Assembly (NCBI RefSeq): GCF_003018255.1
Contig: NZ_CP027440.1
Length of the DNA: 64,000 nt
Direction: 5' to 3' (one strand)
Origin: Escherichia coli
GTDB taxonomy: Bacteria > Pseudomonadota > Gammaproteobacteria > Enterobacterales > Enterobacteriaceae
Shown: positions 59,379 to 59,680 of the stretch, in pieces
Numbering within the stretch: position 1 is the stretch's first letter
Layout of the letters: each line of letters begins with the position of its first letter
Translations under genes and position numbers: made by a program
Notes under the pieces: model-generated
What the model was told of the DNA's origin: nothing
The model's database searches: none
Seen by the model: the letters and a program-made list of their open reading frames with translations, nothing else

Positions 59379-59680
59379 ACTGCTTATTCCTTGATAAAAC
59401 GGTTACACACGCCAGGACGGCAAAATGAATCCCAAATCGGAATAGTCTGGATTTGGAAGGCTCACATTATCACCAAAAGAGTTTTACGCAAGCCTGTCGG
59501 CGCAGGGTTTACAAATTTAGCACAGGGGCAGTTTTCAAGAGTCCGAAAAGCGCATGGATTGTAGATTTATTTCTTATTTCCTAAGATTATGAAACCGCAA
59601 TAGTAATATGCAAATAAGCAATTAATAATCCCGTTTACTCCTCCGGTCTTTTAAAATTCTCACCTTCATTCAGCTGGTTT

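What the first reader, a model, noticed from the sequence alone, without database searches (positions are those of the whole stretch)
59379..59680. No toxin-antitoxin genes in the yafK-yafL spacer
From memory of the E. coli K-12 map, the dinJ-yafQ toxin-antitoxin pair sits between yafK and yafL. Here the spacer is about 300 bp of AT-rich sequence with no ORF of suitable size, so the module appears to be absent in this genome.
Basis: partly seen in the sequence, partly recalled or inferred. Interest (0 to 1): 0.35.

Follow-up and report, generated by a model that had tools for sequence, protein, structure and literature searches.

The report
Ancestral empty dinJ-yafQ insertion site
This E. coli genome has no dinJ-yafQ toxin-antitoxin pair between yafK (dpaA) and yafL because it carries the older, uninterrupted form of that intergenic region, an ordinary and already documented strain difference seen in about 38% of complete E. 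coli genomes.

Summary
yafK/dpaA (58638-59378, -) and yafL (+) are separated by about 300 bp of 39.7% GC DNA. No ORF there exceeds 57 aa, and DinJ and YafQ give no tblastn match anywhere in the window (best E 0.39). K-12 does have the order yafK-yafQ-dinJ-yafL.

The difference from K-12 is a replacement, not a simple gap. Window 59519-59753 (235 bp) corresponds to 830 unrelated bp in K-12. The K-12 block holds yafQ, dinJ, a LexA-box-like sequence, the yafL upstream region and the first ~21 yafL codons, so the YafL signal peptide differs between the two forms.

The window's form is the ancestral one. The same 235 bp and the same YafL N-terminus occur in E. albertii and two other Escherichia lineages, and recognisably in Citrobacter, all without the module.

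Among 5426 complete E. coli genomes, 3340 carry the cassette and 2084 carry the window-type segment. Together that is 5424, the number that have the flanks.

The uneven phylogroup distribution of dinJ-yafQ is published. Verdict: real, ordinary and already known. The yafL 5' swap is a minor extra detail.

The parts
58638..59378 (-). yafK (dpaA), a YkuD-fold peptidoglycan-Lpp amidase and the left flank of the site
   Evidence: ORF. Pfam YkuD, E=2.9e-8. Annotated as dpaA in a 99.9%-identical genome. 98% identical to K-12.
It contains no dinJ or yafQ.
   Evidence: No Rfam match at E<=1. No LexA-box-like CTG-N10-CAG.
59379..59518 (.). 140 bp next to yafK that both alleles share. It is 99% identical to K-12 and strongly conserved out to Citrobacter. 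It is presumed to be the yafK 5' UTR or proximal control region.
   Evidence: blastn against K-12; multi-species alignment.
59519..59753 (.). Allele-specific 235-bp segment, found only in genomes lacking the module. It corresponds in position to the 830-bp dinJ-yafQ block of K-12 (L001 2020-2849).
   Evidence: Breakpoints. No detectable similarity to the K-12 block. Present in 2084 of 5426 E. coli genomes. Homologous to E. albertii and other Escherichia sequence.
59560..59640 (.). AT-rich core (27% GC), nearly invariant across Escherichia species. It is a candidate site for the divergent yafK/yafL promoters (inferred only).
   Evidence: Alignments; GC. One promoter-like match on the minus strand at 59614-59586, but the count is not above shuffles.
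59690..60439 (+). yafL, an NlpC/P60 (C40) peptidase and the right flank of the site
   Evidence: ORF. Pfam NLPC_P60, E=3e-33. RefSeq start in L002 corresponds to window 59690.
59690..59761 (+). First 24 yafL codons (signal peptide MSSFLHGRFLHPGVFSLCVLLPLL). This is the ancestral type and differs from K-12's MSLPSIPSFVLSGLLLICLPFSSF.
   Evidence: Ungapped nucleotide identity to K-12 is 31/72, P about 0.06 against shuffles.

Best explanation
Window 59379-59689 is the ancestral, unoccupied allele of the yafK(dpaA)-yafL intergenic region. It is an ordinary AT-rich region between two divergently transcribed peptidoglycan-enzyme genes, and it presumably carries both of their promoters. In K-12 and about 62% of E. 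coli, a 0.83-kb block was acquired horizontally at this spot. That block holds yafQ, dinJ, a LexA-box-like sequence upstream of dinJ, a new yafL upstream region and a new yafL signal-peptide-coding 5' end. It replaced 235 bp of the ancestral sequence. This genome's lineage carries the allele that never received the block. Shown here: the absence, the breakpoints, the population frequencies and the homology of the window allele to outgroups. Inferred: promoter function, and the recombinational route by which the block entered.
For: (1) No DinJ or YafQ similarity in the window. (2) K-12 has yafK-yafQ-dinJ-yafL. Homology to K-12 runs from 59000 to 59518 and resumes at 59754. (3) The 235-bp window-specific segment and the YafL N-terminus align with E. 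albertii, Escherichia sp. E1V33 and 'E. coli' SCPM-O-B-8794. All three lack the module. The YafL N-terminus and parts of the spacer also align with Citrobacter gillenii, C. youngae and Citrobacter sp. FP75. Among 80 species-representative loci, only Escherichia sp. MOD1-EC7003 has dinJ-yafQ at this site. (4) The distribution is complementary: the cassette is in 3340 genomes and the window-type segment in 2084, summing to 5424, which equals the number of genomes with the flanks. (5) Alleles without the module are themselves diverse: 1128 genomes at >=99% identity to the window, 823 at 90-95% and 132 at 80-90%. That diversity fits an old allele. (6) Published work places yafQ-dinJ in all genomes of the E/B1/A lineage, and within the F/G/B2 lineage only in phylogroup F (PMC6896753). 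Chromosomal toxin-antitoxin modules are described as horizontally transferred units integrated between core genes (PMC5120126, citing Ramisetty & Santhosh 2016 and Fiedoruk 2015). (7) Distant dinJ-yafQ relatives (60-80% identity) sit on Klebsiella, Enterobacter and other plasmids.
Against: E. fergusonii was not among the recovered loci, so the outgroup series has a gap. One non-coli Escherichia lineage (L006) carries the cassette at the same junctions. Its dinJ and yafQ are 98-99% identical to K-12 while its flanks are 89-96% identical. Alleles have therefore moved between lineages, and this genome's own history (never acquired, or re-converted by recombination) is not resolved. No mobility signature (target duplication or terminal inverted repeats) marks the K-12 block, so the insertion mechanism is unknown. 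Promoters in the spacer are not demonstrated.
Confidence: 0.9

Rival explanations
1. Secondary deletion: an ancestor of this strain had dinJ-yafQ between yafK and yafL and lost it by deletion.
For: Chromosomal toxin-antitoxin modules are known to decay (general knowledge; Mine et al. 2009 is listed in the references of PMC7167474). The cassette is the majority state in E. coli.
Against: A deletion would leave K-12-type sequence at the junctions. Instead the window has 235 bp unrelated to K-12, and that sequence is orthologous to E. albertii, other Escherichia and Citrobacter sequence, including the yafL 5' end. No cassette remnant was found.
Confidence: 0.03
2. Allelic re-conversion: the lineage once carried the cassette allele and regained the allele without it by homologous recombination with another strain.
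For: The two alleles share flanks that are 95-99% identical. The cassette allele is shared between E. coli and another Escherichia lineage with higher identity in the cassette than in the flanks. Phylogroup F carries the cassette inside an otherwise cassette-free lineage (PMC6896753). Exchange at this locus therefore does occur.
Against: The published distribution puts cassette-free genomes in the B2/G/D part of the tree, so no extra event is needed there. That inference is indirect: one search reports where the module is present, with phylogroup D used as the reference. The window's spacer is >=99% identical to the commonest cassette-free allele (1128 genomes). Nothing in the window marks a recombination tract.
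Confidence: 0.07
3. The module is present in this genome but sits outside the 64-kb window.
For: Only 64 kb could be examined.
Against: In 5426 genomes the cassette has a median of 1 and a maximum of 2 places per genome. The genomes holding it and those holding the empty-site segment sum exactly to the number with the flanks. All 10 distinct contexts returned for the exact K-12 DinJ protein are yafL-dinJ-yafQ-yafK. The full-length plasmid matches also cover the adjacent yafL (C40 peptidase) gene, and several records are hundreds of kb to Mb long, so they look like F-prime or chromosomal fragments (that reading is my own).
Confidence: 0.03
4. The spacer hides a different small gene pair, small protein or small RNA that takes the module's place.
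For: A stop-free frame of about 48-57 codons (59391-59564) persists in four Escherichia sequences. The AT-rich core is highly conserved.
Against: The frame lies in near-invariant DNA next to yafK and starts with TTG. Most of the differences between species change the amino acid. There is no Pfam match for any of the three small ORFs, no Rfam family at E<=1 and no terminator-like site within the spacer.
Confidence: 0.03

Closest known systems
Presence/absence polymorphism of the dinJ-yafQ type II toxin-antitoxin locus of E. coli K-12 (Fiedoruk et al. 2015; Ramisetty & Santhosh 2016; Gonzalez-Alba et al. 2019, PMC6896753)
   Same: Same chromosomal site, between yafK/dpaA and yafL. This window is the cassette-free state that those studies report for part of the species. 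The frequencies found here (3340 with, 2084 without) fit the published phylogroup pattern.
   Different: Nothing differs in kind. The detail added here is that the two states differ by a 235-bp versus 830-bp replacement reaching about 64 nt into yafL. I did not find that stated in the papers I could read. The two primary papers were not available in the library.
Empty-site alleles of other chromosomal toxin-antitoxin modules, such as ccdO157 between folA and apaH (Mine et al. 2009; recalled from memory, and cited in the reference list of PMC7167474)
   Same: A small toxin-antitoxin operon sits between conserved core genes in some strains and is absent in others, with no mobile-element scars.
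   Different: It is a different module and a different locus, and it was not examined here.
Alternative occupancy of the neighbouring yafL-lfhA spacer (rayT with REP elements, or hicAB)
   Same: It is a second small-cassette polymorphism one gene away. Cassette-free genomes AST20 and PEC1013 carry a hicAB toxin-antitoxin pair where this window and K-12 carry rayT.
   Different: It concerns the other side of yafL. The window has rayT (60614-61112), not hicAB.

Membership tests
dinJ-yafQ type II toxin-antitoxin module (RelB/DinJ antitoxin plus YafQ mRNA interferase) | An ORF of about 86 aa encoding a RelB/DinJ-family antitoxin | tested here: not met
   tblastn with K-12 DinJ: best hit in the window E=0.39 (elsewhere in the window), and E=0.54 when the spacer plus 200-bp flanks was searched alone. 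The small ORFs have no Pfam match.
dinJ-yafQ type II toxin-antitoxin module (RelB/DinJ antitoxin plus YafQ mRNA interferase) | An adjacent ORF of about 92 aa encoding the YafQ toxin | tested here: not met
   tblastn with K-12 YafQ: best hit in the window E=0.97, and E=1.0 in the spacer (11 aa).
dinJ-yafQ type II toxin-antitoxin module (RelB/DinJ antitoxin plus YafQ mRNA interferase) | A LexA-box-like or operator palindrome upstream of dinJ | tested here: not met
   K-12 has CTGTATATTTATTCAG at L001 2593-2608. The window spacer has no CTG-N10-CAG, and its best match to the LexA consensus is 12/20.
Cassette-free (empty-site) allele of the yafK-yafL locus | yafK and yafL directly adjacent and divergent, with the allele-specific spacer sequence | tested here: met
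   A contiguous full-length match in 2082 genomes. The 235-bp segment is in 2084 genomes and is annotated only as yafL or intergenic.
Cassette-free (empty-site) allele of the yafK-yafL locus | Orthology of the spacer and yafL 5' end to outgroup species (the ancestral state) | tested here: met
   Alignments with E. albertii, two other Escherichia lineages and Citrobacter.
Divergent promoter region for dpaA and yafL | Mapped or predicted sigma-70 promoters on both strands | tested here: inconclusive
   The consensus scan found 2 promoter-like sites, both on the minus strand, against 1.2 +/- 1.1 in shuffles. No transcription-start data were available.

The most novel reading that the evidence does not exclude
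Presence or absence of dinJ-yafQ may be coupled to different control and export signals for two peptidoglycan enzymes. The cassette allele removed the conserved AT-rich core of the ancestral dpaA/yafL control region. It also gave yafL a new upstream region and a new signal peptide. In cassette-bearing strains dpaA then lies downstream of the dinJ-yafQ operon, which has a LexA-box-like sequence, whereas cassette-free strains like this one keep the ancestral divergent arrangement. The structural swap is shown here. Any physiological consequence is speculation.
Probability: 0.2. Interest if true: 0.3.

Novelty: already known. Interest (0 to 1): 0.08.

Why it matters
It matters little beyond bookkeeping. 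It confirms that this strain belongs to the roughly 38% of E. coli that lack dinJ-yafQ, a module often cited in work on persistence, biofilm tolerance and the SOS response in K-12. It also shows that K-12 is the derived state at this locus. One practical point follows. K-12 findings that involve the dinJ-yafL intergenic region do not transfer to cassette-free strains, because that DNA, the yafL upstream region and the signal-peptide codons are different sequence here. Those findings include the LexA-box-like sequence, SrsR binding (PMC9181523) and the proposed read-through into yafK (PMC5120126).

Tried and rejected
1. Permissive tblastn and blastn for any remnant of the cassette found only chance-level hits.
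2. I tested for residual homology between the 235-bp and 830-bp allele-specific segments. Local alignment scores fell within the shuffle range. A codon-anchored ungapped comparison of the yafL 5' ends gave 31/72 identities, P about 0.06. A few residues coincide in position (M1, S2, F9, G13, C18), but homology is not demonstrable.
3. A search for target-site duplications or terminal inverted repeats around the K-12 block found none at the boundaries.
4. An Rfam scan of the spacer found nothing at E<=1. The promoter and terminator consensus scan was not above chance.
5. The small ORFs in the spacer have no Pfam match and do not show a coding pattern of conservation.
6. I tried to trace a donor of the cassette. 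Full-length plasmid hits also cover the adjacent chromosomal gene yafL, so they look like F-prime or chromosomal fragments. The other plasmid hits are only 60-80% identical. Every context of the exact DinJ protein is the same chromosomal site. The donor remains unidentified.
7. Strain BS-01 has an odd cassette-free allele with short K-12-like stretches in the yafL 5' end. I considered it as an intermediate between the alleles. I set it aside because it is a single, indel-rich sequence.
8. Divergence of yafL between the window and K-12 is elevated (94% identity, against 98% for yafJ and yafK). I considered this a footprint of the insertion. However, yafL and rayT diverge about three times faster than yafJ and yafK in every species pair, so the effect is not specific to the allele.

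Full report
**What is at the coordinates.** The window is E. coli chromosome. It is colinear with strain JNE23-011 over all 64 kb, at 99.6% identity over the first 47 kb, 98.4% across the Rhs/ISAs1 segment (42.5-49.3 kb) and 99.4% over the last 15 kb. Around the finding lie these genes:
- fadE (54522-57044, -)
- lpcA/gmhA (57173-57784, +)
- yafJ (57885-58667, +)
- yafK, now named dpaA (58638-59378, -)
- a spacer
- yafL (+, ending at 60439)
- rayT (60614-61112, +)
- a flhA-like pseudogene (61330-63102, -)

Pfam confirms a YkuD domain in YafK and NlpC/P60 in YafL. It is 311 bp to ATG 59690, which is the start conserved in other Escherichia and used by RefSeq. GC is 39.7% against 51.3% for the whole window. 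The longest ORFs are 57, 43 and 46 aa.

K-12 (BW25113, locus L001) has yafK - 155 bp - yafQ - dinJ - 209 bp - yafL (also Table 1 of PMC5120126), so the map was recalled correctly. tblastn with K-12 DinJ (86 aa) and YafQ (92 aa) at very permissive settings found nothing better than E=0.39 in the window, and nothing meaningful in the spacer. blastn with the whole K-12 cassette gave only short AT-rich matches elsewhere. The module is absent here.

**Anatomy of the difference.** blastn against K-12 shows homology over window 59000-59518 (98.7% identity), which covers the 3' part of the query's yafK sequence and the first 140 bp upstream of yafK. Homology resumes only at window 59754 (94.8% identity), about 64 nt inside yafL. 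Between those points the window has 235 bp (59519-59753). K-12 has 830 bp there (L001 2020-2849), comprising:
- 15 bp beyond the yafQ stop codon
- yafQ and dinJ
- a LexA-box-like CTGTATATTTATTCAG, which the window spacer lacks
- the 209-bp dinJ-yafL intergenic region
- the first ~21 codons of yafL

The two segments show no detectable similarity. Local alignment scores are inside the shuffle distribution. A codon-anchored comparison of the yafL 5' ends gives 31/72 identities, P about 0.06. The YafL precursor therefore begins MSSFLHGRFLHPGVFSLCVLLPLL|ASATTSH here and MSLPSIPSFVLSGLLLICLPFSSF|ASATTSH in K-12. From ASATTSH onward the two proteins are clearly homologous, with about 94% nucleotide identity over the rest of the gene. 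No target duplication or terminal inverted repeat marks the K-12 block.

**Which state is ancestral.** I scanned one genome per bacterial species with YafK and kept 80 loci. I then located YafJ, YafK, YafL, RayT, DinJ and YafQ in each by tblastn.
- yafK and yafL are adjacent, with no toxin-antitoxin pair between them, in E. albertii, Escherichia sp. E1V33 and a divergent 'E. coli' representative (SCPM-O-B-8794).
- The same arrangement holds in several Citrobacter (youngae, gillenii, werkmanii, braakii, one amalonaticus) and in Phytobacter.
- Only Escherichia sp. MOD1-EC7003 carries dinJ-yafQ at this site.

The window's 235-bp segment aligns along its whole length with the three cassette-free Escherichia sequences. 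That alignment includes a nearly invariant AT-rich core (about 59567-59631). The window-type YafL N-terminus is recognisably the one found in Citrobacter (...PGLLSLCVVLS...). The cassette-free allele is therefore ancestral, and the K-12 allele is a derived replacement. The MOD1-EC7003 cassette has the same junctions as K-12. Its yafQ and dinJ are 99.3% and 98.1% identical to K-12, against 95-96% for yafJ and yafK and 89% for yafL. This is compatible with movement of the allele between lineages by homologous recombination, but it does not prove it. E. fergusonii was not recovered, which leaves a gap in the outgroup series.

**Population frequency.** Among 5426 complete E. coli genomes, 5424 match the flanks. 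Of these, 2082 have the contiguous cassette-free arrangement. The K-12 cassette is found in 3340 genomes, with a median of one place per genome. The window-specific 235 bp is found in 2084 genomes. The two counts sum to 5424, which points to two mutually exclusive alleles. Cassette-free alleles fall into three identity classes relative to the window:
- >=99% in 1128 genomes
- 90-95% in 823 genomes; the one I aligned from this class (AST20) has an 11-bp deletion near 59558-59568
- 80-90% in 132 genomes; the one I aligned (PEC1013) has the same deletion

All ten distinct contexts returned for the exact K-12 DinJ protein are yafL-dinJ-yafQ-yafK. The full-length plasmid matches also cover the adjacent yafL gene, and several records are hundreds of kb to Mb long, so I read them as F-prime or chromosomal fragments. 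Most of the remaining plasmid matches are 60-80% identical relatives in Klebsiella, Enterobacter, Sphingobium and others.

**What is already published.** Gonzalez-Alba et al. (PMC6896753) report yafQ-dinJ in all genomes of the E/B1/A lineage, and within the F/G/B2 lineage only in phylogroup F. Ramisetty et al. (PMC5120126) describe chromosomal type II modules as horizontally transferred units integrated between core genes, citing Ramisetty & Santhosh 2016 and Fiedoruk et al. 2015. Fraikin et al. (PMC7167474) note that no toxin-antitoxin system is conserved across four reference strains of phylogroups A, B1, E and B2. Cassette-bearing examples in my searches include K-12, BL21 and O157:H7. Cassette-free examples include A0 34/86. 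The SE15 and ST131-type strains appear among the nearest relatives over 54-64 kb, but their state at this site was not visible in that output. That A0 34/86, SE15 and ST131 belong to phylogroup B2 is my own knowledge. The window's own phylogroup was not determined. Its nearest complete genomes are JNE23-011, JNE112863, DETEC-S792 and SCU-171 (98.5-99.3% over 54-64 kb), and the next group, which includes SE15 and ST131-type strains, is at 96.4%.

**What the spacer does.** Nothing beyond an intergenic control region is indicated. There is no Rfam family at E<=1, no terminator-like site inside the spacer, and the count of promoter-like sites is not above chance. None of the small ORFs has a Pfam match. 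The stop-free frame at 59391-59564 lies in near-invariant DNA next to yafK, and most of its differences between species change the amino acid. By inference, both divergent genes must be transcribed from this 311 bp in the ancestral arrangement. The 140 bp next to yafK are kept in both alleles. The conserved AT-rich core is lost from the cassette allele. In K-12 the corresponding dinJ-yafL region has a LexA-box-like sequence and an in vitro SrsR site (PMC9181523), and yafK has been proposed to be co-transcribed with dinJ-yafQ (PMC5120126). Whether the allele swap changes dpaA or yafL expression, or YafL export, was not tested.

**Verdict.** The feature is an ordinary, already known presence/absence polymorphism. 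This window carries the ancestral empty site rather than a deletion. The only mildly new detail is that the alleles differ by a replacement that also exchanges the yafL upstream region and signal-peptide codons.

Noticed in passing
L087 2167-2624 and L086 2167-2520 (E. coli AST20 and PEC1013); corresponds to window 60440-61330: In the two genomes I looked at from the other two cassette-free identity classes, the yafL-lfhA spacer holds a hicB antitoxin gene where this window and K-12 have rayT. AST20 also has the adjacent hicA toxin. In PEC1013 only hicB is annotated before the flhA pseudogene. This is a second small-cassette polymorphism one gene away from the finding.
   Followed up: partly
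window 60436-60525 and 61115-61362: REP/BIME-type palindromic repeat clusters flank rayT (60614-61112). There are three copies of a unit of about 90 nt plus several perfect 14-nt inverted repeats, as expected for a REP-associated tyrosine transposase locus.
   Followed up: partly
window 59681 vs 59690: Two in-frame ATGs could start yafL. Only 59690 is conserved in E. albertii and the other Escherichia lineages (59681 reads ATA there), and RefSeq uses 59690.
   Followed up: yes
window about 59762-61594: yafL and rayT are much more diverged from K-12 (94% and 93% identity; 92.5% over the whole stretch) than yafJ and yafK on the other side of the spacer (98%). The same roughly threefold faster divergence is seen between all Escherichia species pairs, so it is a property of the genes rather than of the cassette allele.
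   Followed up: yes
window about 16740-47500: Downstream of a tRNA-Asp gene (16740-16816, which I take to be aspV) lies a complete type VI secretion island. It includes hcp, tssM, tssA, tssH, tssK, tssJ, tagH, tssG, tssF, tssE, tssC, tssB, a second hcp, vgrG and an Rhs core protein. In the closest genome one VasL-domain gene is frameshifted. From memory, K-12 lacks this island.
   Followed up: no
window 48017-49308, 49769-51061, 51733-53024: Three ISAs1-family insertion sequence copies, 97-99% alike, lie just after the Rhs core gene, interleaved with Rhs fragments and orphan small genes. In the closest genome one copy has an internal stop.
   Followed up: no
window 61330-63102 and onward: A flhA-like (lfhA) pseudogene followed by lafU looks like the remnant of the Flag-2 lateral flagellar cluster (that reading is from memory). 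It is annotated the same way in K-12 and JNE23-011.
   Followed up: no
window 18024-18059 (-) and 18390-18416 (+): Two short AT-rich stretches in inverted orientation match the palindromic AT-rich part of the K-12 dinJ-yafL intergenic region (E=1e-3, 83-89% identity over 27-36 nt). This is probably a compositional coincidence.
   Followed up: no
L085 1331-1740 (E. coli BS-01): A single cassette-free genome has an indel-rich spacer and a yafL 5' end containing short K-12-like stretches (ATGTCCTTGC and CGGGATTACTGTTG) within otherwise window-type sequence. It could be a mosaic allele or could reflect assembly errors.
   Followed up: partly
window about 3370-8600: A complete rRNA operon lies between gmhB and dkgB, with tRNA-Ile and tRNA-Ala in the 16S-23S spacer and a trailing tRNA-Asp at 8519-8595. 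From memory this is rrnH.
   Followed up: no
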